Shown here: positions 43,514 through 55,127 of the stretch, in pieces
How the letters are laid out: each line of letters begins with the position of its first letter
Numbering within the stretch: the first letter of the stretch is position 1
NCBI GenBank assembly: GCA_965198675.1
Contig: OZ240666.1
Span: 4,644,776-4,708,775, forward strand
Length of the DNA: 64,000 nt
Reading direction: 5' to 3'
DNA from: Prochloron sp.
GTDB lineage: Bacteria; Cyanobacteriota; Cyanobacteriia; Cyanobacteriales; Prochloraceae
The notes under the pieces: generated by a model
The model's input: the letters and a program-made list of their open reading frames with translations, nothing else
Told to the model about the DNA's origin: nothing
Databases searched by the model: none
Program-made: the position numbers and the translations under genes

Positions 43514-43670
43514 GGTAACTGGTAACTGCCTGACTGCCCCGGTTGGCATGAGCAGGACTGGTAACTGGTAACTGGTAACTGCCTGACTGCCCCGGTTGGC
43601 ATGAGCAGGACTGGTAACTGGTAACTGGTAACTGGTAACTGGTAACTGGTAACTGGTAACTGGTAACTGT
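43514..43670. repeat. heptamer (GGTAACT/CAGTTAC) tandem arrays interleaved with a 33-bp module
   Basis: Runs of GGTAACT (up to about 8 units) alternate with two copies of GCCTGACTGCCCCGGTTGGCATGAGCAGGACTG. The same modules occur at 9480-9520, 18700-18800 and 22540-22640. Confidence 0.9.
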
Positions 43671-45452: not shown

Positions 45453-46568
45453 TTAGAAATAGGTGCGATCTCGCTTCTTTAAATACATCTTGCCAAGTTC
45501 TGCTAAAGGCTTTAATCTATCAATATATGCTACCAAAGTAGCAACTCGTTCTCTTTGACTTAGTTCCTCTTGCAGCTCTACAATTAGCTCTGCTTGTTTT
45601 TGGATTTGACATTGCAACAACTGGCAATTTTGAGTCTTTTCCTCCAGGAGAGATTGCTGTGCGGTGAGTTGCTTTTGTAAATTATCTACCAGCTCTGCTT
45701 GTTCTTGAATTTGACGTTGCAACGATTCGCAATTTTGAGTCTTTTCCTCCAGGAGAGATTGCTGTGCGGTGAGCTGCTTTTGTAAGTTATCTATCAGCTC
45801 TGCTTGCTCTTGAGTTTGACGTTGCAACGATTCGCAATTTTGAGTCCTTTCCTCCAGGAGAGATTGCTGTGCGGTGAGTTGCTTTTGTAAATTATCTACC
45901 AGCTCTGCTTGTTCTTGAGTTTGACGTTGCAACGATTCGCAATTTTGAGTCCTTTCCCCCAGGAGAGATTGCTGTGCGGTGAGTTGCTTTTGTAAATTAT
46001 CTACCAGCTCTGCTTGTTCTTGAGTTTGACGTTGCAACGATTCGCAATTTTGAGTCCTTTCCTCCAGGAGAGATTTCTGTGCGATAAGCTGCTTTTGTAA
46101 GTTATCTAAGAGCTGGGTTTGCTCTTCAGCTTGCTGTTGCAGAGACTGAGAACTTTCTGCTTGAAGACTTGCAAGAGATGTTTGTTCGGCGAGGTGCTTT
46201 TCTAACTCAGTAATGCGTTTTCTCTGTGTTTCAATTTGCTCTATTGTAGAATCATTCTTTTCCTTGATTTCTTTATCCTCAGCTTCTGGTGTACCAGTTA
46301 CAATAGCAATCTTAACTTGTGTTGGGGATTCGTTGGTACCTTCTGTATCAGTTTCAATAGCAACAGTTTTCTCGGCTTCATTGCTGGCGATCGCCATTGA
46401 ACCCAAAACGAAGCGCTCGATTAATTCAGATTTAGATAATTGAGCTTTCTCAGCGATTCGATTGAGCAAATCAAATGCCTTCGACGTTAGGGAAATGCCT
46501 ACCTTTGATTTACTTTCCCCAGAATCTGAGGGTCTACGCCTTTTTCTTGCCATGGCATCTTTCTCCAA
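45453..46568 (-). CDS. ribbon-helix-helix plus long repetitive coiled-coil protein
   Basis: N-terminal CopG-like SKVGISLTSKAFDLLNRIAEKAQLSKSELIERFV, followed by about five 35-aa (105-bp) tandem repeats LQKQLTAQQSLLEERTQNCESLQRQTQEQAELVDN. Confidence 0.6.
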   Translation of the reverse strand: MEKDAMARKRRRPSDSGESKSKVGISLTSKAFDLLNRIAEKAQLSKSELIERFVLGSMAIASNEAEKTVAIETDTEGTNESPTQVKIAIVTGTPEAEDKEIKEKNDSTIEQIETQRKRITELEKHLAEQTSLASLQAESSQSLQQQAEEQTQLLDNLQKQLIAQKSLLEERTQNCESLQRQTQEQAELVDNLQKQLTAQQSLLGERTQNCESLQRQTQEQAELVDNLQKQLTAQQSLLEERTQNCESLQRQTQEQAELIDNLQKQLTAQQSLLEEKTQNCESLQRQIQEQAELVDNLQKQLTAQQSLLEEKTQNCQLLQCQIQKQAELIVELQEELSQRERVATLVAYIDRLKPLAELGKMYLKKRDRTYF

Positions 46569-46618
46569 ATAGTCTATAAATTAATAATAGTAGCGTATCA
46601 AGCAGAGGATCCCCCCCT

Positions 46619-46763
46619 CAGGGTAAGCGCAAGAATCAATAAGGGGGCTAATTCTCAATAATAATGATAATCTTCCCGACATTATTGATAATAGAGTGAG
46701 ACTATTGAGAATTAATGTGGCCATATACCACATTTTGGCACAATTTTTCTTGCGCTTGCCCTG
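46619..46763. mobile_element. MITE with CAGGG(T/C)AAGCGCAAGAA terminal inverted repeats, copy 1
   Basis: 145 bp; CAGGGTAAGCGCAAGAA...TTCTTGCGCTTGCCCTG, flanked by GATCCCCCC-like sequence on both sides. A second copy lies at 57643..57797. Confidence 0.7.
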
Positions 46764-46834
46764 GATCCCCCCTTGATCCCCCCTTAGATCGGAGGGTGCC
46801 CGATAGGACGGGGGGATCGGGGGGATCAGAGTAA

Positions 46835-48625
46835 TTAACGGTTAAAAACGCGACCACGCCATTTATTCAACCGCAGTTCTCCAATAGAAGCAACGGGACG
46901 CAAGTCGGCAATCTTTTCTCGCAAAGCAGCAATTTCCCGCTCTTGCTCTTCTGACTGCTGTTCTAAAGCCTCATAATCTCCTTCAATAGTAACACTAGCA
47001 GTGACTGGGCTGGGAACTTGCACCGTAATAGCAGTGGTACCATAAGAGGTGTTAGATTTCCACTTGTTCAACTCTGAGCTGCCAATGGTTGCCAAGGGCT
47101 GTAAATCTGCTAGCTGAGTGCGCAATTTGGCTAGTAATTCTTCCTGTTCGGCGCACTTGTTACGCATCGCTTGATAAGCTTCTTTGTGAGCTAATTCTTC
47201 CGCTGTTGGACCAATCGCTTCCGGGGGTCTGGGCTTGAGTATGGCTGCCAACAATTGATTTACATCAGTTAAATTAGTCCCTGGTGGCAATTCTCCCTCG
47301 GGAGTATTAGTCATGAGGGCTAGTTTCGTCAGAGGTTTATTCCGGGATACCAGAAGATCTTTGTCGCTACCAGAATTACCACGGAGCAGTTTGAATGTAT
47401 TGGTATAACCGAGGAGTTTCTTCCCTGTTTGGGTTTTATTACCTCGGTAATAGGGGACGATATTTTCCCCAAAAGCATCTTGATATTCGTCACTATCGAT
47501 ATAAGAATCGATTTCTGCCTCAAATCCCTCGCCGTCGAGTATTTTGCTCTGAGCGAAGGTTGAACTATAGTCGTCGGGAGCGCGACCAAGTAAATGCTTG
47601 AAATTCAACTCAATGGAGCGATAGCGGGGACAGTTTTCGAAAAAGCGAGAGCGGTATAATTCCGATTTGGCGAGTTGACGGACAAATTCCCGGACGCTAA
47701 TTTCCCCTCCTTTGAATTGGGATTCTGGGAGCACGAGTCGCTCGCTTTCCATTATGTGAGCATTGCCGAAAACTTGGCGATAGACAGCGCGAATTACCGT
47801 TTCTATTTCTTCTTCATCAGAACCCGGTACTAACTCAAAGATGGGCAAATCGCTGAATGCTTCGTATTGACTTTGAATCGAAACAGCAGTGGGGGAAAGC
47901 TTCTCCTCCTTTTTCTCCTCCTTGACACTCAGCCGAGCTAGCAGTTTCTCCGTCTCCCCCTTAAAGAGTAACTGCCAATAGGAGGGAACTCCTTCCAGGG
48001 GAACGATGGATCCGGAAGTATTGATCATCACAAACCAATTGAGACGAGAGCGATTTTGCCCCACAATGTCTTGATCGCTGCTGGAATAACCTCGCAACAA
48101 CCGGAACATATGGGGAAACCCAATGCCATTTTTCCCTGTCTGGGTTCGATATCCTCGATAATAGGGAACGATATGTTGACCGAAATTTTCCAGATATTCA
48201 TCGCTATCGATATAGGAATCTATTTCTGCCTCATAACCGAACCCGTCCAAAATGCGGGTATGAGCGATGATTTCCTCGTAGCTTTCCGGTGCGCGCCCAA
48301 GTAAATGCTTGAAATTCAATTCTACTGCCCGGTTGCGAGAGCAGTTGAGGAAAAAGCGAGAGCGGTAAAAGTCTGATTTAGCGATTTGGCGCACGAATTC
48401 CCGGACGCTAATATCCTTATTTTTCAGTTGGGATTCCGCTACAGCAAGCCTTTCGCTGTCCATGACGTGAGCATTGCCCAAAACTTGCCGATAGACGGCG
48501 CGAATGACGATGTCAATTTCTGACTCTGTTACTTTCGGGTTGAGTACGAGGGGTTCTATTTCTGCAAAGGGACTAACCCCTAATTCCGCACGACTTAAAG
48601 TAGGATTAATGAAACTCTGAACCAT
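46835..48625 (-). CDS. phycobilisome linker with two tandem linker domains and a novel repeated C-terminal tail
   Basis: 596 aa with two full linker domains (VIRAVYRQV(L/F)GNAH...LNFKHLLGRAP...EAEIDSYIDSDEY...IVPYYRG). It has no CpcD-like domain. The tail contains two ADL(Q/R)P(L/V)A(T/S)IG...LNKW(K/R) motifs. Confidence 0.85.
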   Translation of the reverse strand: MVQSFINPTLSRAELGVSPFAEIEPLVLNPKVTESEIDIVIRAVYRQVLGNAHVMDSERLAVAESQLKNKDISVREFVRQIAKSDFYRSRFFLNCSRNRAVELNFKHLLGRAPESYEEIIAHTRILDGFGYEAEIDSYIDSDEYLENFGQHIVPYYRGYRTQTGKNGIGFPHMFRLLRGYSSSDQDIVGQNRSRLNWFVMINTSGSIVPLEGVPSYWQLLFKGETEKLLARLSVKEEKKEEKLSPTAVSIQSQYEAFSDLPIFELVPGSDEEEIETVIRAVYRQVFGNAHIMESERLVLPESQFKGGEISVREFVRQLAKSELYRSRFFENCPRYRSIELNFKHLLGRAPDDYSSTFAQSKILDGEGFEAEIDSYIDSDEYQDAFGENIVPYYRGNKTQTGKKLLGYTNTFKLLRGNSGSDKDLLVSRNKPLTKLALMTNTPEGELPPGTNLTDVNQLLAAILKPRPPEAIGPTAEELAHKEAYQAMRNKCAEQEELLAKLRTQLADLQPLATIGSSELNKWKSNTSYGTTAITVQVPSPVTASVTIEGDYEALEQQSEEQEREIAALREKIADLRPVASIGELRLNKWRGRVFNR

Positions 48626-48630
48626 TTTTC

Positions 48631-48978
48631 TTATCTTCTCCTGAATGATAAATTTTCCGTTTTGTTATCAAATTTGGTATAAAAACCGCCGTATTTTAGC
48701 CAATATTGTTTTAGATCGTGATGGGGAGTATGCAAACTAGCTTTTGCTTGATATAATATCACTTGGCGATGATTTCCTATCCAAACTTTTCTGACTGGAT
48801 CTACGGAAATGAGGGTACCACCGAGACTGCGAACGCATTCTTCAAATCTCTCTACCGTAGAATATTCTAAGGTTTCAAATATATAAAAGTTTCCCGCACA
48901 AATAAGATACCTATTCCTAATCCAGCATTGCATTTTTTTGCTTGCTACTGGGGGCAACATAGTTCCTTTTTGCTCCAA
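48631..48978 (-). CDS. cpeR: phycoerythrin operon regulator CpeR
   Basis: ...MLPPVASKKMQCWIRNRYLICAGNFYIFETLEYSTVERFEECVRSLGG... resembles CpeR, and the gene lies directly after cpeT as in cpeCDESTR operons. Confidence 0.75.
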   Translation of the reverse strand: MEQKGTMLPPVASKKMQCWIRNRYLICAGNFYIFETLEYSTVERFEECVRSLGGTLISVDPVRKVWIGNHRQVILYQAKASLHTPHHDLKQYWLKYGGFYTKFDNKTENLSFRRR

Positions 48979-48987
48979 AACTAGGGT

Positions 48988-49635
48988 TTAAAAGAGCTGG
49001 TAACTGTCATGGTACGAGGTCACTGATTTTGGTACTTCGGACGCGAAACTTTGTACTTTCTCAAATCGCAATGGACCAGCAGCAGAACCCCAAACTTGCT
49101 CGTGGGTGTTAATATCCATCCCCCGATCTAAACTTACCCAAGTATTCTCAGTCAGTTCAATTTCGCTTTCAAGATATGTTGGACAACCTTTTCTTTCCAC
49201 CAGACATTTATTCCCCGGTTCAACACTTCCTCGAAACATATCTCCCTGTCTTTTAAATATCATGGAGCAGTGATAGCGTCGTTGGATACAGTCATGAGTA
49301 AGAGAGTCGAGAATTTCTCGCTCCCGACCACCACCTGCGTATAACAAACCATCTTTGAGGGCATAATTTTCAATATACACTTCCTCCCCCCTATCTATGA
49401 GACGATGTACTCCCTGACGGTAAGGACTCCAGAGGTCGTAGTCATATACTTGTTCGGAATAAAAACCGATGCTGTTGAAAAATTCCCAGGGTAAGGGACG
49501 AAAGAAAACGTGAATGTGAGCGTAGGTTTGAGGATTGGACTTTGCTTGTTTGTGATTAGAAAAATCCCCCGCCATCCAGCGAGCTAATTGCAACATTGAA
49601 TCATTGTTTTGTCTTTCTGTCTCTGGGAGAAGCAT
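48988..49635 (-). CDS. cpeT: T-type phycobilin lyase CpeT
   Basis: LQLARWMAGDFSNHKQAKSNPQTYAHIHVFFRPLP...YSEQVYDYDLWSPYRQGVH is the CpcT/CpeT signature. The C-terminus runs into heptamer-repeat sequence. Confidence 0.85.
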   Translation of the reverse strand: MLLPETERQNNDSMLQLARWMAGDFSNHKQAKSNPQTYAHIHVFFRPLPWEFFNSIGFYSEQVYDYDLWSPYRQGVHRLIDRGEEVYIENYALKDGLLYAGGGREREILDSLTHDCIQRRYHCSMIFKRQGDMFRGSVEPGNKCLVERKGCPTYLESEIELTENTWVSLDRGMDINTHEQVWGSAAGPLRFEKVQSFASEVPKSVTSYHDSYQLF

Positions 49636-49747
49636 TTTTGGGTATAAACTAGGGGTTTCTTAAATTGAACTAGTAGTGCGTCTAGACTAAAACTGTGAGT
49701 AAATAACAATCCTGTCTATTTAACTTCATATCCTGATCCCCCCGATC

Positions 49748-49911
49748 TAAGCTATCCTTGATAAGGAACTCTGAAACCCTTGATTGATAAGGGGATAGGG
49801 GGATAGGGGGATTGGGAGATAACGTGATTGGCTGATTTGGGGATTGTTTTATAGAACTTCCCCCAGCAAGACTCATAGCGTTCCTTATAAGGGTTAGCGA
49901 TCTAAGGGGGG
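49748..49911. repeat. 164-bp inverted-repeat element between cpeS and cpeT
   Basis: CCCCCCGATCTAAGCTATCCTTGATAAGGAAC (49748..49779) is nearly the reverse complement of GTTCCTTATAAGGGTTAGCGATCTAAGGGGGG (49880..49911). Confidence 0.6.
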
Positions 49912-49933
49912 TGACGGGGGGTGCCGTAAGGCA

Positions 49934-50458
49934 CTAGGTCTTCAAAGAGCGAATTTCGGAAGCAAAGGAAGCAGTGATTACCCCAGATCCAGCACTGGTT
50001 TTAATCAGGGATACGCGAAAACGTAAATTGGGGGTAGCAAACCAAATTTTCTCCTCCGCCATGGCGCGATCGTAGGGGGTTAAGAGGACAAAAACATCAT
50101 CTTCGTTAATGCGATATTCCCCCACAGAAGGCATGGTTTCCGCATAACCGCGATCGCGCAACAATTTCCCTTTTTTCGGCTCTTCCGGAACCGGCACTAA
50201 GATAGTGGTTCCTTTCAGTTCCTCATCTTCGTCCCAGTCTGACTCTCCTTCCCAGGTCATGCGAAAGGGAGAACTTGCTGCTTTTGGGTCAATTTGATGG
50301 AATTTGCACAAATCTATAACTTCCGGATCGTCGGTGGCTATAGCTTCAATCTCAAGGTTGGAAGTAACTGCTTCAAACTGCTGGAATGCCATATGATGTG
50401 CCGATCGCTGCGATCGCCAACTCCCAATTGACATTTCTACAAATTTGCTAATATCCAA
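49934..50458 (-). CDS. cpeS: S-type phycobilin lyase CpeS
   Basis: (TTG)DISKFVEMSIGSWRSQRSAHHMAF...KLLRDRGYAE...RFRVSLIKT. The N-terminal extension of the track ORF is a translated repeat. Confidence 0.75.
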   Translation of the reverse strand: MDISKFVEMSIGSWRSQRSAHHMAFQQFEAVTSNLEIEAIATDDPEVIDLCKFHQIDPKAASSPFRMTWEGESDWDEDEELKGTTILVPVPEEPKKGKLLRDRGYAETMPSVGEYRINEDDVFVLLTPYDRAMAEEKIWFATPNLRFRVSLIKTSAGSGVITASFASEIRSLKT

Positions 50459-50587
50459 GGTTTTGGGGTGTGGGGTGTAGGGTGTGGGGTGTAGTTGAAC
50501 ATCGTAGGTTGGGTTGAGGCAACGAAACCCAACAGCCAAGGAGATTTGTGTTGGGTAACGCTTGCGCTCTACCCAACCTACTATTGT

Positions 50588-50794
50588 TTATTGTAGGACT
50601 GTGACTCCAGTCACCTTACCTCCCAGGCGATGAATCTTCCGCATTTCCTGAACCATATTACTGTGAGACCCTTTAACTGTATAATCGCTCGTCCGCATTA
50701 CATCTTGACGACAGACTCCCGTTGCCTTAATCTCAACGATTCGACCGTCATAATCACTGGTCTTTATCGTCCCTGTGGTAGTCATTCCTGACAT
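50588..50794 (-). CDS. small CpcD-like linker-domain protein
   Basis: 68 aa from MSGMTTTG...: ...RIVEIKATGV...YTVKGSHSNMVQEMRKIHRLGGKVTGVTVLQ, a CpcD-type domain pattern. Confidence 0.65.
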   Translation of the reverse strand: MSGMTTTGTIKTSDYDGRIVEIKATGVCRQDVMRTSDYTVKGSHSNMVQEMRKIHRLGGKVTGVTVLQ

Positions 50795-51009
50795 AGCTTT
50801 TTCCTTAACTAATTTTGTTCTTTTCATCAATAAATAAATGGGAGTAGGAGAGTGGTGGAGTAGGGAAGTTGGGAAGTAGGGGAGATTGGGTATGATTGTC
50901 ACTTTTGCCAGCAAACTGATATACCTTTTCCACTACTGTTGGTGGGCAATGCCCACCCTACCACTTACCACTATCCCCCCATCACTCCATTATCCTATCC
51001 CCCATTGAT

Positions 51010-51589
51010 CTAAGCTACCTCAGTAATGCTGAGGATTTTGCCGCCAGTTTTGTGAATGTTTTGGATTTTCTGGGACATTTGGGCGTAACCCACCTCATAA
51101 ACCAAGTTGCTCTGCTTGTAGATTGGAGTAAGACCAGCTTTAGCAACAGCAATGCGGTAGCGCTTCCCAGTGTTGTCAGCAGCACCAGAACCAGCAGCAG
51201 GAGCGGTTACTGTCCCGGATCCATTACCTGCGGTAACCCCAATGAGCTTAGCTTGACCGCTGCGATCGCTGGTAGCATCTCCCCGCAGGAGGGTGAATCC
51301 CCGGACGTAGCTAGAGTTCTTAAACCCAAGCTGACTGCTGGTACTGCGAGCATAGGGAACCGTATTTTCCCCATAAGCACCCTGATACTCGTCGCTATCG
51401 ATATAAGAATCGATTTCTGCTTCATAACCGATAGCTTCTGCACTGACTAATCTTTGGTTGTCCAGTACGTGGATGTTGCCCAAAACCTGCTTGCTGCTTG
51501 TAAGCTGCCCGAATTACTTTCTGTACGTCTTCTTCAGTCGCCCCAGCACGCAGTTCAGTGGGTTCTGCTGACCTTACCCAGAGTGCCAT
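51010..51589 (-). pseudogene. PE rod-linker paralog, frameshifted by a 7-bp duplication and carrying an internal deletion
   Basis: MALWVRSAEPTELRAGATEEDVQKVIRAAYKQ (from the ATG at 51589) shifts frame at CAAGCAGCAAGCAG (51487..51500). About 65 aa of the linker-domain core are also absent between ...VSAEA and IGYEAEID. Confidence 0.85.
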
Positions 51590-51648: not shown

Positions 51649-52416
51649 CTAAACTACCTCAGTAATGCTGAGAATTTTGCCCCCAGTTTTGTGAATGTTG
51701 CGCACTTGCTGGTTCAGTTGGCTGTAGTTAACCACGTATTCCAAATTGCTATATTTATTGAGAGTTGCGGGAGCAGCAGAAGTTGACACCGCAATGCGAT
51801 AGCGCTTATTGGTGTTGTCATAGGAGCCACCCCGACCCACTGCTGGTGCTTTAATGGCACTGGGTAGGTTACCTGCTACTGTAGATAACAGCTTAGTGGG
51901 CATATCCCGATCGCAGGAAGCACCACCCCGGAACAATTCAAAGGAGCGACCGTAGCTAGAATTGGGGAATCCTACCCGAGAGCTAATATTAGCGGCATAG
52001 GGAACTACATTGTCGCCGAACTTTTCCAGATACTCATCGCTACAGAGGTAGGAATCTATTTCTGCCTCAAAACCTTCCCCGTTATAGGTTTGGACGTGGG
52101 CGGAAAGTTCAGCCTGAGAGGTGGGTGCCCTCCCCAAAAGATGTTTGAAGTTCATCTCTACAAAGCGATAGGGGGGAGCGGATTGAAAAAATAAACCTTT
52201 ATACAAGGAAGACTTAGCCACCATACCCACGAAACCGCGCACGGTGATGTCTCCATTGCGCAGCATTGATTCTGCACTGGTGAGGCGATCGCTTTCCAGC
52301 ACGTGTTGGTTCCCCAAAACTTGCTTGTAAACAGCGCTAATTACTGCTTGGAGGTCTTCTTCAGTTGCACCCTCTCTTAATTCTACGGGATCTGTCTCTG
52401 TTACCCAGAATGCCAT
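51649..52416 (-). CDS. phycoerythrin-associated rod linker (linker domain plus CpcD-like C-terminus)
   Basis: 255 aa; ...VISAVYKQVLGNQHVLES...MNFKHLLGRAP...EAEIDSYLCSDEY...KRYRIAVS...VRNIHKTGGKILSITEVV. Confidence 0.85.
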   Translation of the reverse strand: MAFWVTETDPVELREGATEEDLQAVISAVYKQVLGNQHVLESDRLTSAESMLRNGDITVRGFVGMVAKSSLYKGLFFQSAPPYRFVEMNFKHLLGRAPTSQAELSAHVQTYNGEGFEAEIDSYLCSDEYLEKFGDNVVPYAANISSRVGFPNSSYGRSFELFRGGASCDRDMPTKLLSTVAGNLPSAIKAPAVGRGGSYDNTNKRYRIAVSTSAAPATLNKYSNLEYVVNYSQLNQQVRNIHKTGGKILSITEVV

Positions 52417-52513
52417 GGAAATTACTCCTGTTTTATTATTGGTTATTGGTTATTGGTTATTGGTTATTTGTTATTGATACAGCAACCAATAACAAATAAC
52501 GGGGAAGCCAGAT

Positions 52514-53315
52514 TTAGACAACCTCAGTAATAGAGAGGATTTTGCCCCCTGCTTTGTGAATTGTCTGTACTTCCTGGGACATTTGGCTATAGCTAACCAC
52601 CCGTTCCACCTTGCTATACTTATTCAGCCTTGCTGCTGCTGTTGAGGTAGAAAAAGCGATGGAGAAGCGCTTACCAGTATTGCCGTAATTTGCCCCATTC
52701 CCTACTGCTGGGGCTGCTATTGGGGTAGCCAAGTTAGCCGCGAGGGAGGTAATTAGGGTCGCCTCGTTACTATTGTCATTTGTCATTGGTTGCTGGTCCC
52801 CGAAGCAAGGAGAACATCCGATTGAAGCCCTCAGTCTTGATCCCAGTTTGGCTTTGAATGCTGCGGGGGTAAGGGACAAAATTCTCGCCAAAATTCTGGA
52901 AATACTCGTCGCTATCCAGATAAGAGTCGATTTCTGCTTCGTAGCCCCCTTCCTGATAAATTTCAACCTGTTCTATAATTTCAGCCTGATCCTGGGGAGG
53001 ACGACCCAACAAGTGCTTGCAGTTCAGCTCAATGAAACGATTCTGAGAGGAGGAGACAAAAAACAGTTTTTGATACTGTTCTGATTTTGCTACAAGACAG
53101 ACAAATCCCCGAACTGTTATATCCCCATCTCGCAGTAGGGCTTCAGCACTGTCTAGGCGATCGCATTCCATCAGGTGTTCGTTACCCAACACTTGCTTGT
53201 AAACAGCGCGAAAGACAGTTTGTAAGTCAGATTCAATTGCATGGGGGCGCAACTCCAGCGGGTCTACTTCAAAAGCATCCAGACCCAGGGTTTCGGAGCG
53301 GGCTAAAATTCCCAT
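52514..53315 (-). pseudogene. phycoerythrin-associated rod linker split by a 7-bp tandem duplication
   Basis: The linker domain (52776..53315) and the CpcD-like domain (52514..52966) are in different frames. Removing one ATGACAA unit at 52773..52786 gives a continuous 264-aa protein. Confidence 0.85.
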
Positions 53316-53405
53316 TGGTTATATCTCCTGATTAAATTGGTCTTAAAAATCTCTTTTCTAGAGACGTAAAAAAATATTACGCCTCTCTATCAGCTCTTCA
53401 GAGGC

Positions 53406-54170
53406 TTAAGCCACCTCTGTGATACTGACTATGGTCGCCCCAGTGCGATTAATCCGCTGAATTTGCGGTGTCATTTTGCCACCAGAAACGATATACTCCG
53501 TGGTGCTGCGACGGCGAGGACTGTCGAATTTAGAACCTTTAACCAGAATTTTAAAGGTTTTCTCGGTAGCATCTTGATAAGCAACGCTACGGGCCCCGGT
53601 AGCAGGGGCAATCTTGCTGCTGCTATTGGTAGCTACTTCTTGCACCAAGCGAGAAGCTTTATTACCGCTATCAATTTCTGCCACACCCCGGAACAGGGAT
53701 ACAGTGCGGGTATAACCCACCTGCTTTTGTCCCACCTGACTTACAGCACCTTGGTAATAAGGCACAGTGTTCTCCCCGAAGTTCTCCTGATACTCCAAAC
53801 TATCGATATAGGAGTCGATTTCTGCATCGTAGCCTTCTTCTACACAGGTGCAGATATGAGCGAAAACCTCACTTTGATCCGTAGGAGCGCGACCCAAGAT
53901 ATGCTTGAAGTTCAGCTCCACAAAGCGATAGGGGGCGCAGGATTCAAAATAGCGATCGCGGTAGAAGTCTGATTTAGCCACAGCCCGGACAAATTCCCGC
54001 ACTGTCAGAGTCCCCTCTAGGAACTGAGATTCCGCACTCACCAACCGCTCACTTTCCATGACGTGGGGGTTACCCAACACTTGCTTGTAAACTGCTCTAA
54101 TGGCAGCTTGTTTATCTGAAACCGTACTCGTGGACCATATTTCTACGGGTCCACCTAACACTGTGCTCAT
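53406..54170 (-). CDS. cpeD: phycoerythrin-associated rod linker (CpeD-like)
   Basis: 254 aa; ...AIRAVYKQVLGNPHVMESERL...LNFKHILGRAP...DAEIDSYIDSLEY...KTFKILV...RINRTGATIVSITEVA. Confidence 0.75.
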   Translation of the reverse strand: MSTVLGGPVEIWSTSTVSDKQAAIRAVYKQVLGNPHVMESERLVSAESQFLEGTLTVREFVRAVAKSDFYRDRYFESCAPYRFVELNFKHILGRAPTDQSEVFAHICTCVEEGYDAEIDSYIDSLEYQENFGENTVPYYQGAVSQVGQKQVGYTRTVSLFRGVAEIDSGNKASRLVQEVATNSSSKIAPATGARSVAYQDATEKTFKILVKGSKFDSPRRRSTTEYIVSGGKMTPQIQRINRTGATIVSITEVA

Positions 54171-54248
54171 GCAATTTCTCCTTAATCAAAGCTTTTCTCA
54201 AGTGGATTCAGGATAGAAGAACCGGTTTTTGACCCATTCCTCCGTCCC

Positions 54249-55127
54249 CTAAATTTCTGTAACACTGGCGATTTGACCGCCTTGTCGGTGAATCCGCTTG
54301 TATTGTTCGGAAAGCTTATCGAACGGTACAATGTACACCTTGTTAGAGCGGCGGAATTGAGATACCCGATTAACTGCACCAGGGGAAGCATAAGCTGTAA
54401 CCTCAATGCGGTAAACCTTCCCTTGATCCGAAGCACCAGTACCGTGACGAGTACGAGCACCCAGGGTGGTATCTTGGAAAGACCAGCCATTACCAGCGGT
54501 ACCAGAAGAAGGAGCAACTACAGGGAGGGGGGTTTCCTGAATCACGTGCTTATTCAACACAGGGCTCTTACCCGCCAAACTGCCTTTCAAATCGCTGGAA
54601 GAAGCACCTCGCAACATGGCAAACATATGAGTAAACCCAACCATATTTTGTCCTGGTTGGGTTTTGTAGCCTCTGTAGTAGGGAACGAAGTCTTCTCCAT
54701 AGGCATTCTGGTATTCGTTGCTATCCAGGTAGGAATCGATTTCTGCCTCAAATCCTTCACTATCCAGGATAGTGCTGTGTGTTCTCATTTCCTCCAAACC
54801 ATCGGGAGTACGCCCCAGGAGATGCTTGAAATTCAGCTCAATTGCCCGATAACGAGGAACAGAGTCGAAGAAGCGAGAGCGATACAAGTCTGATTTAGCC
54901 ACAGCGCGGATAAATTCTCTGACGCTGAGTTCTCCCCGTTTGAACTGGGATTCCGGAATAGTGGCACGTTCGCTCTCCATGACGTAAGCATTGCCCAAAA
55001 CTTGCCGATACACGGCGCGGATAATGCTTTCAACATCTTCTTCCGAGCGACCTGGAATCAGTTCTATGGGATCTGTATCTTCAAATAGGCCAACACCTAA
55101 TTGGGATGCGGGTCCAAAAACCATCAA
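54249..55127 (-). CDS. cpeC: phycoerythrin-associated rod linker CpeC
   Basis: 292 aa; ...IIRAVYRQVLGNAYVMESER...LNFKHLLGRTP...EAEIDSYLDSNEY...YRIEVTAY...YKRIHRQGGQIASVTEI. It is the first gene of the linker array. Confidence 0.8.
   Translation of the reverse strand: MMVFGPASQLGVGLFEDTDPIELIPGRSEEDVESIIRAVYRQVLGNAYVMESERATIPESQFKRGELSVREFIRAVAKSDLYRSRFFDSVPRYRAIELNFKHLLGRTPDGLEEMRTHSTILDSEGFEAEIDSYLDSNEYQNAYGEDFVPYYRGYKTQPGQNMVGFTHMFAMLRGASSSDLKGSLAGKSPVLNKHVIQETPLPVVAPSSGTAGNGWSFQDTTLGARTRHGTGASDQGKVYRIEVTAYASPGAVNRVSQFRRSNKVYIVPFDKLSEQYKRIHRQGGQIASVTEI

What the first reader, a model, noticed from the sequence alone, without database searches (positions are those of the whole stretch)
46835..48625. 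596-aa protein with two tandem phycobilisome-linker domains and a duplicated C-terminal motif, encoded right after cpeR
Ordinary rod linkers have one linker domain. This ORF has two complete domains (about aa 30-190 and 270-430). In place of a CpcD-like domain it has a tail with two coiled-coil segments. Each segment ends in a conserved motif: LRTQLADLQPLATIGSSELNKWKSN and LREKIADLRPVASIGELRLNKWRGR. Multi-domain rod linkers are known from Gloeobacter (CpcJ/CpeG) and marine Synechococcus (MpeD), but I do not recognise this tail. The gene starts 5 bp after cpeR, so it is probably co-transcribed.
Basis: partly seen in the sequence, partly recalled or inferred. Interest (0 to 1): 0.58.

Follow-up and report, generated by a model that had tools for sequence, protein, structure and literature searches.

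The report
Phycoerythrin linker with coiled-coil docking tail
A real, widely conserved but unnamed gene at the end of the phycoerythrin linker operon encodes an antenna "linker" that can hold two pigment discs; in place of the usual plug domain it has a two-helix tail, also found on a DNA-binding protein encoded next door, which points to an undescribed way of attaching or regulating the light-harvesting antenna.

Summary
ORF 46835-48625 (minus strand, 596 aa, 67.6 kDa) has two PF00427 linker domains and no CpcD domain. Its tail is two homologous heptad-repeat helices, each ending in a conserved motif. The ATG lies 5 nt after the cpeR stop codon. It is not a fusion artefact: over 50 full-length homologues exist.

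The tail, not the domain count, defines the family. The same tail follows 1, 2, 3, 4 or 7-8 CpeC-like domains. In 74 of 80 species genomes the gene sits directly downstream of cpeS-cpeT-cpeR. No Pfam or NCBIfam model, solved structure or paper I found covers the tail. Databases label the protein only "rod-core linker", which its domain similarity contradicts.

The same C-terminal unit (I..L...I....LA.IGEARLNKWR.R.F) also ends non-linker proteins. The main class is a ribbon-helix-helix plus coiled-coil protein encoded right after the linker here (45453-46568). In other genomes that protein directly follows cpeR.

Best reading: a CpeC-derived phycoerythrin linker that holds two hexamers and whose CpcD plug was replaced by a portable coiled-coil docking module. 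The partner of that module is unknown. It is a new variant of a known kind, of moderate to high interest.

The parts
46835..48625 (-). Gene for the 596-aa tail-bearing phycoerythrin linker (stop codon 46835-46837)
   Evidence: ORF list; Pfam; full-length homologues
48137..48550 (-). Linker domain D1 (aa 26-163, PF00427)
   Evidence: It is 67% identical to D2 and 59% to the window's CpeC domain. Block pLDDT is 74-93.
47426..47839 (-). Linker domain D2 (aa 263-400, PF00427), the tail-proximal, CpeC-like domain
   Evidence: It is 68-69% identical to CpeC-type domains and 76-84% to the tail-proximal or single domain of other family members.
47231..47269 (-). Short conserved helix after D2 (aa 453-465, TDVNQLLAAILKP); a degenerate copy follows D1
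   Evidence: Family consensus TDIxxLLAEVLKPK; modelled as helix 455-462
47057..47203 (-). Tail helix 1 (aa 475-523), which includes motif 1 ADLQPLATIGSSELNKWKSN (aa 506-525, 47051-47110)
46976..47056 (-). Disordered Ser/Thr/Gly/Pro-rich spacer (aa 524-550), variable in length across the family
   Evidence: pLDDT below 50; alignment; distance between the two motifs 57-104 residues
46838..46975 (-). Tail helix 2 (aa 551-596). It ends in the terminal motif ADLRPVASIGELRLNKWRGRVFNR (aa 573-596, 46838-46909).
   Evidence: N587 and W589 are invariant. I565, L568, I572, A579, G582 and L586 are nearly invariant and fall on heptad a/d positions (plus my reading). The same unit occurs in four protein classes.
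48631..48978 (-). cpeR (115 aa), 5 nt upstream of the target
48988..50539 (-). cpeT (48988-49635) and cpeS (49934-50539)
   Evidence: PF06206 at 5.1e-71 and PF09367 at 3.9e-61
51649..55127 (-). Canonical phycoerythrin rod-linker genes (PF00427 + PF01383): 54249-55127 (CpeC-like), 53406-54170, 52514-53315 (frameshifted) and 51649-52416
45453..46568 (-). Downstream gene (371 aa): ribbon-helix-helix N-terminus, five tandem 35-aa coiled-coil repeats homologous to the tail helix unit, and a degenerate terminal motif (IDRLKPLAELGKMYLKKRDRTYF)
   Evidence: canonical-motif orthologues next to tail linkers in other genomes
46569..46834 (.). Intergenic region with nested inverted repeats built on GGGGGGATC/GATCCCCCC. 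A strong hairpin lies just after the target's stop codon and could be a terminator or attenuator.
   Evidence: the consensus terminator scan found no site here

Best explanation
This is a genuine, conserved phycoerythrin (PE) rod linker of the CpeC lineage, and it is the last linker gene of the cpeC...cpeS-cpeT-cpeR operon. Each PF00427 domain should fill the central cavity of one PE hexamer, so one chain holds two hexamers. That step is inferred from homology to linkers in solved phycobilisomes. The CpcD-type domain, which normally plugs a rod linker into the next core-proximal hexamer, has been replaced by a portable module of two heptad-repeat helices ending in IGEARLNKWRxRxF. I infer that this tail leaves the core-proximal face of the D2 hexamer and docks the PE discs by coiled-coil pairing. 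The partner would be another tail-bearing chain (the linker itself or the neighbouring RHH coiled-coil protein) or a partner common to all tail-bearing proteins. On this reading the protein is an end-of-rod or bridging linker, in the manner of CpcG and CpcL, and not an in-rod connector. What is shown: the architecture, the conservation, the CpeC relationship, the operon position and the sharing of the module. What is inferred: hexamer binding, the direction of the tail and docking by pairing. The partner is unknown.
For: - **Linker domains:** two PF00427 domains score 334.6 bits. They match linkers in solved phycobilisomes strongly: CpcN 8imn 2.3e-224, Glr2806 1.1e-169, CpcC 7eyd 1.7e-59.
- **CpeC relationship:** D2 is 68-69% identical to CpeC-type domains but only 28% to a CpcG-like domain.
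- **Conserved core unit:** in 3-, 4- and 7-8-domain relatives the tail-proximal domain is usually (4 of 7 compared) the one most like D2, 67-76% identical.
- **No CpcD domain:** PF01383 is absent.
- **Tail conservation:** 66 of the 120 best homologues carry it. N587 and W589 are invariant, and the nearly invariant residues fall on heptad a/d positions. The tail is modelled confidently as two helices.
- **Operon position:** cpeR lies directly upstream on the same strand in 74 of 80 genome loci, and also in L001-L006.
- **Portable module:** an exhaustive tail-only profile search found 207 proteins. They include linkers with 1 to 7-8 domains, RHH coiled-coil proteins, HMA_2 proteins and a fourth class, all with a near-identical terminal unit.
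- **Link to the RHH protein:** RHH coiled-coil tail genes lie next to the linker in 8 genome loci and directly after cpeR in 5 metagenome contigs.
- **Precedents (established knowledge):** CpcG and CpcL combine PF00427 with a non-CpcD C-terminal extension that anchors the base of a rod (PMC8448738). MpeD is read as a two-domain linker worth two discs (PMC2246261).
Against: - There is no protein-level evidence that it is in phycobilisomes.
- The tail's partner is unidentified.
- AlphaFold2 gives the isolated tail a pTM of 0.61. The two helices may therefore pack on each other as a closed unit and not pair between chains.
- The same module ends HMA_2 proteins encoded in non-antenna contexts, so its role cannot be PE-specific.
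- The window's RHH coiled-coil neighbour has lost the invariant Trp and Asn.
- D1 is less conserved than D2: 63% against 84% between two genomes.
Confidence: 0.5

Rival explanations
1. PE rod-to-membrane or rod-to-photosystem anchor, the PE counterpart of CpcL. The basic, aromatic C-terminus, made multivalent by the coiled coil, would hold a core-independent string of PE hexamers on the thylakoid surface.
For: - The architecture is the same as CpcL: PF00427 followed by a non-CpcD C-terminal extension (knowledge).
- The last 14 residues carry net +4 and an invariant Trp, whereas helix 2 as a whole is net neutral.
- In L008 a second RHH coiled-coil paralogue ends in a hydrophobic, transmembrane-like segment in place of the motif.
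- An HMA_2-tail gene lies in a cluster with a P-type ATPase and DUF454.
Against: - The hydrophobic moment of the terminal motif is not elevated: 0.15-0.22 against 0.24 for shuffles. FtsA's membrane helix, recalled from memory, gives 0.61.
- There is no hydrophobic segment.
- The transmembrane swap is a single case.
- PE emission overlaps chlorophyll absorption poorly (knowledge).
- DNA-binding RHH heads on a membrane anchor would be unusual.
Confidence: 0.2
2. Assembly-to-transcription coupling. The linker tail and the RHH coiled-coil DNA-binding protein, and possibly CpeR, would interact through the shared module. The amount of unassembled linker would then feed back on PE gene expression.
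For: - Both kinds of tail-bearing gene sit immediately after cpeR: 74 of 80 loci for the linker, and 5 metagenome contigs where the RHH protein follows cpeR with no linker between.
- In this window the gap to cpeR is 5 nt.
- The RHH fold is a DNA-binding fold.
- The RHH protein's repeats are homologous to the tail helix unit.
- CpeR has no recognisable DNA-binding domain and works through SigB1 (PMC13079394).
Against: - Most Nostoc loci have no adjacent RHH coiled-coil gene.
- One RHH coiled-coil gene has no PE genes in the 8 kb upstream; its contig ends 24 nt downstream, so that side was not seen.
- The module also ends HMA_2 proteins.
- Being last in an operon explains adjacency to cpeR without any interaction.
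- No binding data exist.
Confidence: 0.13
3. An ordinary in-rod linker equivalent to two fused CpeC-type linkers, as proposed for MpeD. It would simply add two PE discs, and the tail would be a dispensable stabiliser.
For: MpeD is a precedent. The domains are CpeC-like. The gene lies in the PE linker operon.
Against: - Without PF01383 it lacks the element that joins a rod linker to the next hexamer (knowledge).
- The tail is at least as conserved as the family's other features, and it is retained whatever the number of domains.
Confidence: 0.1
4. Annotation or assembly artefact, or a decaying pseudogene.
For: Neighbouring linker genes in this window are frameshifted or degenerate.
Against: The reading frame is intact, two related genomes carry copies 95% and 88% identical, and 50 further full-length homologues exist.
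Confidence: 0.01

Closest known systems
CpeC (single-domain PE rod linker, PF00427 + PF01383)
   Same: It has the closest PF00427 domain: 68-69% identity to D2 and 67-73% to the single domain of the one-domain tail variants compared. It is in the same operon, and a canonical copy is present in the window at 54249-55127.
   Different: CpeC has one domain and a C-terminal CpcD-like plug. The target has two domains, no plug, and a conserved TDxxxLL helix plus the two-helix tail.
MpeD of marine Synechococcus (chimeric two-domain PE linker)
   Same: It has two linker domains on one chain and is interpreted as holding two PE discs (PMC2246261).
   Different: MpeD fuses a PEII-type and a CpeD-like moiety, binds phycourobilin at N-terminal cysteines, and is not described as having this tail. 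The target's two domains are both CpeC-like. Orthology was not tested.
Gloeobacter Glr1262/Glr2806 (CpeG/CpcJ) and Anthocerotibacter CpcJ/CpcN
   Same: These are the best PDB sequence matches. They have tandem PF00427 domains spaced about 230 residues apart and no CpcD domain, and each domain sits in a different hexamer.
   Different: They bundle or chain hexamers purely through covalent tandem domains, belong to thylakoid-free lineages, and have not been reported with a coiled-coil tail. One paper says such linkers were lost in crown cyanobacteria (PMC10696076). Another infers independent duplications within CpeC and CpcC lineages (PMC11976284).
CpcG (rod-core) and CpcL (rod-membrane) linkers
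   Same: They share the logic of PF00427 followed by a non-CpcD C-terminal extension that attaches the base of a rod to something else. Databases label the target 'rod-core linker'.
   Different: Domain identity to a CpcG-like protein is only 23-28%. NCBIfam CpcG1-4 scores of 178-221 bits are far below the cut-offs of 420-440. The extension is a coiled coil, not a core-binding arm or a hydrophobic helix.
Multidomain CpeC-like proteins of Leptolyngbya noted by Matsuo et al. 2025
   Same: This is probably the same broad group: 3-domain-plus-tail and 4-domain proteins from Leptothoe and Leptolyngbya are among the hits.
   Different: They are mentioned only as 'about three linker domains', with function unclear. 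Neither the tail, nor its occurrence on one-domain and non-linker proteins, nor the link to cpeR is described.

Membership tests
Phycobilisome linker superfamily (PF00427) | PF00427 domain above Pfam's gathering score | tested here: met
   334.6 bits against a cut-off of 28.7, in two stretches
Phycobilisome linker superfamily (PF00427) | Encoded among phycobiliprotein and linker genes | tested here: met
   It is the last gene of a cpeC-like ... cpeS-cpeT-cpeR cluster in the window and in 74 of 80 genome loci.
Phycobilisome linker superfamily (PF00427) | Domain sits in the central cavity of a phycobiliprotein hexamer and the protein co-purifies with phycobilisomes | not testable with these tools
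   This is inferred only from homology to linkers in solved phycobilisomes.
Canonical rod linker L_R (CpcC/CpeC/CpeD/CpeE) | One PF00427 domain followed by a C-terminal PF01383 (CpcD-like) domain | tested here: not met
   No PF01383 was found at E <= 0.01, whereas the three intact neighbouring linkers scanned score 37.8-75.5 bits. The target also has two PF00427 domains.
Canonical rod linker L_R (CpcC/CpeC/CpeD/CpeE) | PF00427 domain groups with CpeC-type domains | tested here: met
   D2 is 68-69% identical to CpeC-type domains, 51-59% to the other rod-linker domains compared and 28% to a CpcG-like domain. This is an identity matrix, not a full phylogeny.
Rod-core linker CpcG (the database label) | Reaches the NCBIfam CpcG1-4 cut-offs or has CpcG-like domain similarity | tested here: not met
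   Scores of 178-221 bits against cut-offs of 420-440; 23-28% domain identity to a CpcG-like protein
Rod-membrane linker CpcL | C-terminal hydrophobic transmembrane helix after PF00427 | tested here: not met
   There is no hydrophobic segment. In the tail, 18-residue windows have mean hydrophobicity of at most 0.59 and the terminal motif has a hydrophobic moment of 0.15-0.28.
Gloeobacteria-type multidomain linkers (CpcJ/CpeG/CpcN) | At least two tandem PF00427 domains without PF01383 | tested here: met
Gloeobacteria-type multidomain linkers (CpcJ/CpeG/CpcN) | Orthology: domains group with Glr1262, Glr2806 or CpcN and not with the host's own CpeC | tested here: inconclusive
   No tree that includes those proteins was built. 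D1-D2 identity of 67% and D2-CpeC identity of 68% favour a duplication within the lineage, as argued in PMC11976284.
MpeD | PEII-type N-terminal moiety with phycourobilin-binding cysteines plus a CpeD-like C-terminal moiety | not tested
   No MpeD sequence was compared. The target has only three Cys (95, 332, 491) and none is near the N-terminus.
Tail module (defined here: helix unit plus terminal IGEARLNKWRxRxF) | C-terminal heptad helix ending in [LIV]A.[IV]G...LN[KR]W within about 10 residues of the C-terminus | tested here: met
   The target scores 1.7e-50 against the family tail profile. The terminal unit is shared by linker, RHH, HMA_2 and 'MLQ' classes.

The most novel reading that the evidence does not exclude
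The tail is a shared partner-switch module that physically couples antenna assembly to gene control. The PE linker and the ribbon-helix-helix coiled-coil DNA-binding protein are both encoded right after the activator gene cpeR and end in the same unit. They would pair or compete through that unit, so the pool of linker not yet built into rods would set PE gene expression. This would be an assembly checkpoint for phycobilisomes, comparable to FlgM and sigma-28 in flagella.
Probability: 0.13. Interest if true: 0.85.

Novelty: new variant of a known kind. Interest (0 to 1): 0.62.

Why it matters
Phycobilisome architecture is set by its linkers. In thylakoid-bearing cyanobacteria the accepted classes are rod, rod-core, rod-membrane, core and core-membrane linkers. 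Multidomain rod-type linkers have been treated as relicts of thylakoid-free lineages (PMC10696076). This family shows that a CpeC-derived linker class with one to about eight hexamer-binding domains and a non-CpcD coiled-coil end is widespread in PE-containing crown cyanobacteria. At least 156 species genomes matched one strict pattern, including culturable Nostoc, Calothrix and Komarekiella. The gene is effectively an unrecognised seventh gene of the textbook cpeCDESTR operon. The same terminal module on a DNA-binding protein encoded beside it gives a concrete, testable link between antenna structure and either a new attachment mode or PE gene regulation. Carriers such as Nostoc can be cultured, and some Nostoc strains can be manipulated genetically, so the question is open to experiment.

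Tried and rejected
- **Tail-only word-index search:** no hit. This was a sensitivity limit of that tool, because the exhaustive profile search found 207 proteins.
- **Known domains for the tail:** Pfam and NCBIfam give only sub-threshold coiled-coil noise. A PDB profile search gives only generic coiled coils, best E = 0.13. Foldseek against the PDB gives no match below E = 0.89, with TM 0.23-0.32 to helical hairpins.
- **Membrane-targeting amphipathic helix:** I was struck by a resemblance, recalled from memory, to the FtsA C-terminus (RLNSWLRKEF). The hydrophobic moment is not above shuffled sequence, so I dropped this as the leading idea and kept only a weaker basic/aromatic-patch version as a rival.
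- **PE-specific binding by the tail:** disfavoured. The module also ends HMA_2 proteins in non-antenna clusters, and one class is encoded inside what looks like a phycocyanin cluster.
- **'Rod-core linker' label:** rejected.
- **Last word-index search, with an RHH-domain profile:** returned only short RHH proteins and was useless.
- **Literature (8 searches, 11 papers opened):** no description of the protein, the tail or the RHH partner. The nearest is one paragraph in PMC11976284.
- **Consensus promoter and terminator scan around the gene:** not above shuffled expectation, so uninformative.
Full report
**1.

The ORF 46835..48625 is on the minus strand, starts with ATG and encodes 596 aa, with a calculated mass of 67.6 kDa and pI 5.4. 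Reading the DNA directly, the upstream ORF 48631..48978 ends in TAA. Five nucleotides (GAAAA) follow and then the ATG, and an AGGAG lies inside the end of the upstream ORF. Its counterparts in related loci are annotated "CpeR family transcriptional regulator".

Pfam finds PF00427 at 3.3e-101 in two stretches and no PF01383. By contrast, the three intact neighbouring linkers scanned carry both domains. The domains map to aa 26-163 and 263-400.

AlphaFold2 with a 51-sequence family alignment models both domains well, with block pLDDT 74-93. It models the tail as two long helices, 475-523 and 551-594 (block pLDDT 73-88), separated by a disordered spacer. The tail alone gives pLDDT 80.6 and pTM 0.61. 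The two helix-plus-motif units are repeats of one another: 19 of 40 residues identical, E = 6e-14.

**2. It is a real gene and a conserved family**

A whole-protein search returned copies 95% and 88% identical, and dozens of 571-615-aa proteins at 50-60% identity and about 100% coverage.

- The 88% copy is from Candidatus Paraprochloron terpiosi LD05.
- The window therefore comes from a close relative of that sponge-associated cyanobacterium.
- The 95% relative has the same gene order.

**3. The tail defines the family, not the two domains**

Of the 120 best hits, 66 end in the same motif. The family consensus is a short TDIxxLLAEVLKPK helix, then helix 1 (..LQxxCxEQExxIxxLxQQLAELxPFAxIGxxxLSKWQS), then a variable Ser/Thr/Gly spacer, then helix 2 ending exactly at the C-terminus (..IAxLxxxIADxRxLAxIGEARLNKWRSRxF).

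N587 and W589 are invariant. The nearly invariant I565, L568, I572, A579, G582 and L586 fall on the a and d positions of an unbroken heptad repeat (plus my reading of the sequence). The pattern runs small-small-large-large: A579, G582, L586, W589.

An exhaustive profile search with the tail alone, against 1.84 billion cluster representatives, found 207 proteins at E <= 0.001. The tail follows 1, 2, 3, 4 or 7-8 linker domains. In the 3-, 4- and 7-8-domain proteins the tail-proximal domain is usually (4 of 7 compared) the one most like the window's D2, at 67-76% identity. The conserved core is therefore "one CpeC-like domain plus tail", and extra domains were added on the N-terminal side.

**4. 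What kind of linker it is**

| Comparison | Identity |
|---|---|
| D2 vs CpeC-type domains (window 54249-55127 and its counterpart in another genome) | 68-69% |
| D2 vs tail-proximal or single domain of other family members | 76-84% |
| D2 vs D1 | 67% |
| D2 vs other rod-linker domains | 51-59% |
| D2 vs a CpcG-like domain | 28% |

NCBIfam's CpcG models score 178-221 bits against cut-offs of 420-440. The database label "rod-core linker polypeptide" is therefore not supported by domain similarity. The protein is a CpeC paralogue.

**5. Genomic context**

A scan of one genome per species, using the pattern [IVL]G[EAN]x[RK]LNKWR, confirmed 156 genomes. They include Nostoc (many, including N. punctiforme NIES-2108), Calothrix, Komarekiella, Symploca, Hormoscilla, Xenococcaceae, Hydrococcus, Spirulina, Oscillatoria and Lusitaniella.

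In the 80 loci kept:

- 74 have cpeS-cpeT-cpeR directly upstream on the same strand, with gaps of -17 to 895 nt.
- 67 carry the one-domain form and 13 the two-domain form.
- Four further loci found by exact protein look-up show the same order.

This is effectively an unrecognised gene at the end of the classical cpeCDESTR operon.

**6. The unexpected part: the tail is a portable module**

Among 145 representatives retrieved, 33 are linkers and 27 have an N-terminal ribbon-helix-helix (CopG-like) domain followed by coiled-coil repeats. Five have an HMA_2 (PF19991) domain and four have a short MLQTVWKWLNR-type N-terminus. The rest are mostly fragments. The terminal 30 residues are almost the same in all four classes.

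The window's own downstream gene (45453-46568) belongs to the RHH class:

- It has a basic N-terminus with a weak RHH hit (17.5 bits, below the 20.5 cut-off).
- It has five tandem 105-bp repeats whose 35-aa units match the tail helix unit of the profile.
- It ends in a degenerate motif that keeps I, L, P, A, G, L and K but has lost the Trp and Asn.

Orthologues with a canonical end lie directly downstream of the tail linker in other genomes; 8 of the 80 loci have an RHH coiled-coil gene there. In five metagenome contigs an RHH coiled-coil gene follows cpeS/cpeT-cpeR with no tail linker between; three of the five are complete and end in the motif, the other two are cut by the contig end. The recurrent adjacency is therefore "cpeR, then one or more tail-bearing genes".

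Other contexts vary:

- The MLQ-type gene of an Elainellaceae genome sits inside what looks like a phycocyanin gene cluster.
- The HMA_2 type sits next to hemN, heme oxygenase and a rubrerythrin-family gene (possibly acsF-like) in Gloeothece verrucosa PCC 7822.
- Another HMA_2 type sits in an HMA_2 / P-type ATPase cluster.
- One RHH gene has no PE genes in the 8 kb upstream; its contig ends 24 nt downstream.

**7. Mechanism**

What is shown is the architecture, the conservation, the CpeC relationship, the operon position and the sharing of the module.

The following is inferred from established knowledge. PF00427 domains sit in hexamer cavities. A rod linker's C-terminal CpcD-like domain plugs into the next core-proximal hexamer. 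Linkers whose PF00427 is followed by another kind of extension, such as CpcG and CpcL, attach the base of a rod to something else (PMC8448738).

On this basis one chain holds two PE hexamers, as proposed for the two-domain MpeD (PMC2246261). Its tail cannot make the normal in-rod junction. Heptad helices pair, and near-identical units on different proteins would pair with one another or bind a common partner. My best reading is therefore a docking or bridging tail. I give this 0.5.

Three rivals remain:

- **Membrane or photosystem anchor (0.2).** Supporting points are the net +4 of the last 14 residues with an invariant Trp, and a paralogue in L008 that ends in a hydrophobic segment instead of the motif. 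The lack of an elevated hydrophobic moment counts against it.
- **Regulatory link with CpeR or the RHH protein (0.13).**
- **Plain double CpeC (0.1).**

**8. Comparison with what is known**

The best solved relatives are CpcN, Glr2806 and Glr1262. These are tandem-domain linkers of thylakoid-free cyanobacteria that bundle or chain hexamers. One paper states that such linkers were lost in crown cyanobacteria (PMC10696076). Another notes multidomain CpeC-like proteins in Leptolyngbya with unclear function and infers independent duplications (PMC11976284).

None of the papers I searched or read mentions the tail, the one-domain form, the position after cpeR or the RHH partner. The library lacks most subscription-journal papers, so absence from it is not proof.

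**9. Verdict**

The feature is a new variant of a known kind: a widespread, unnamed subfamily of PE linkers with an undescribed, portable C-terminal module. Interest is 0.62. The gene family is easy to test in culturable strains, and the shared module with a DNA-binding neighbour is unexplained.

Noticed in passing
window 52514-53315 (-): The third PE linker gene is split by a frameshift into ORFs 52776-53315 and 52514-52966. The 95%-related genome has one intact 264-aa gene (tblastn switches frame near aa 175). This is either a pseudogene or a sequencing error.
   Followed up: yes
window 50588-51483 (-): ORF 51010-51483 is a linker with an internally deleted PF00427 domain and a CpcD-like end. 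ORF 50588-50914 is a stand-alone weak CpcD domain. The counterpart in L001 is also degenerate, which suggests a decaying linker paralogue in a symbiont genome.
   Followed up: partly
window 45586-46108: There are five tandem 105-bp repeats (94% matches) inside the RHH coiled-coil gene. The repeat number differs between relatives: the protein is 371 aa here, 329 aa in L001 and 301 aa in L007.
   Followed up: partly
window 46569-46834: The intergenic region is packed with nested inverted repeats built on GGGGGGATC/GATCCCCCC, including a strong hairpin just after the target's stop codon. It could be a terminator, an attenuator or a small repeat element. I did not check how often the motif occurs elsewhere in the genome.
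   Followed up: partly
window 43514-43669 and the 3' end of cpeT (about 48988-49030): Heptanucleotide (ACTGGTA)n arrays create ORFs that read VTSYQLP repeatedly. The same repeat-derived peptide (VTSYHDSYQLF) forms the C-terminal end of the cpeT ORF. These look like STRR-like short tandem repeats.
   Followed up: no
proteins P0004, P0018, P0028, P0042: This is a separate family of linkers of about 980-1020 aa with four PF00427 domains and no tail. They end in ..TDxxxLIRKVLGLI, the same short helix that precedes the tail in the target. They occur in Okeania, Leptothoe and Leptolyngbya sp. PCC 7376 and Heron Island J. I found no characterisation of them in the papers searched.
   Followed up: partly
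L008 12487-13452: A second RHH coiled-coil paralogue, encoded right after the first, ends in a hydrophobic, transmembrane-like segment (WAKIVLLLLPISAALLIGYYY) in place of the terminal motif.
   Followed up: no
L015 and L053: Contigs assigned to 'Candidatus Gracilibacteria' and 'Acetobacteraceae' MAGs carry cpeR plus a tail linker. They are almost certainly mis-binned cyanobacterial contigs.
   Followed up: no
L112: A cluster of several HMA_2 (PF19991) proteins, a P-type ATPase with an HMA_2 N-terminus, DUF5132 and DUF454. One HMA_2 protein in it carries the tail module. The system is of unknown function.
   Followed up: no
L004 / cluster 4: The same Komarekiella gene is annotated either as 579 aa (two domains) or as 333 aa (second domain plus tail). 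Public annotations therefore disagree on the start codon and on the number of domains.
   Followed up: no
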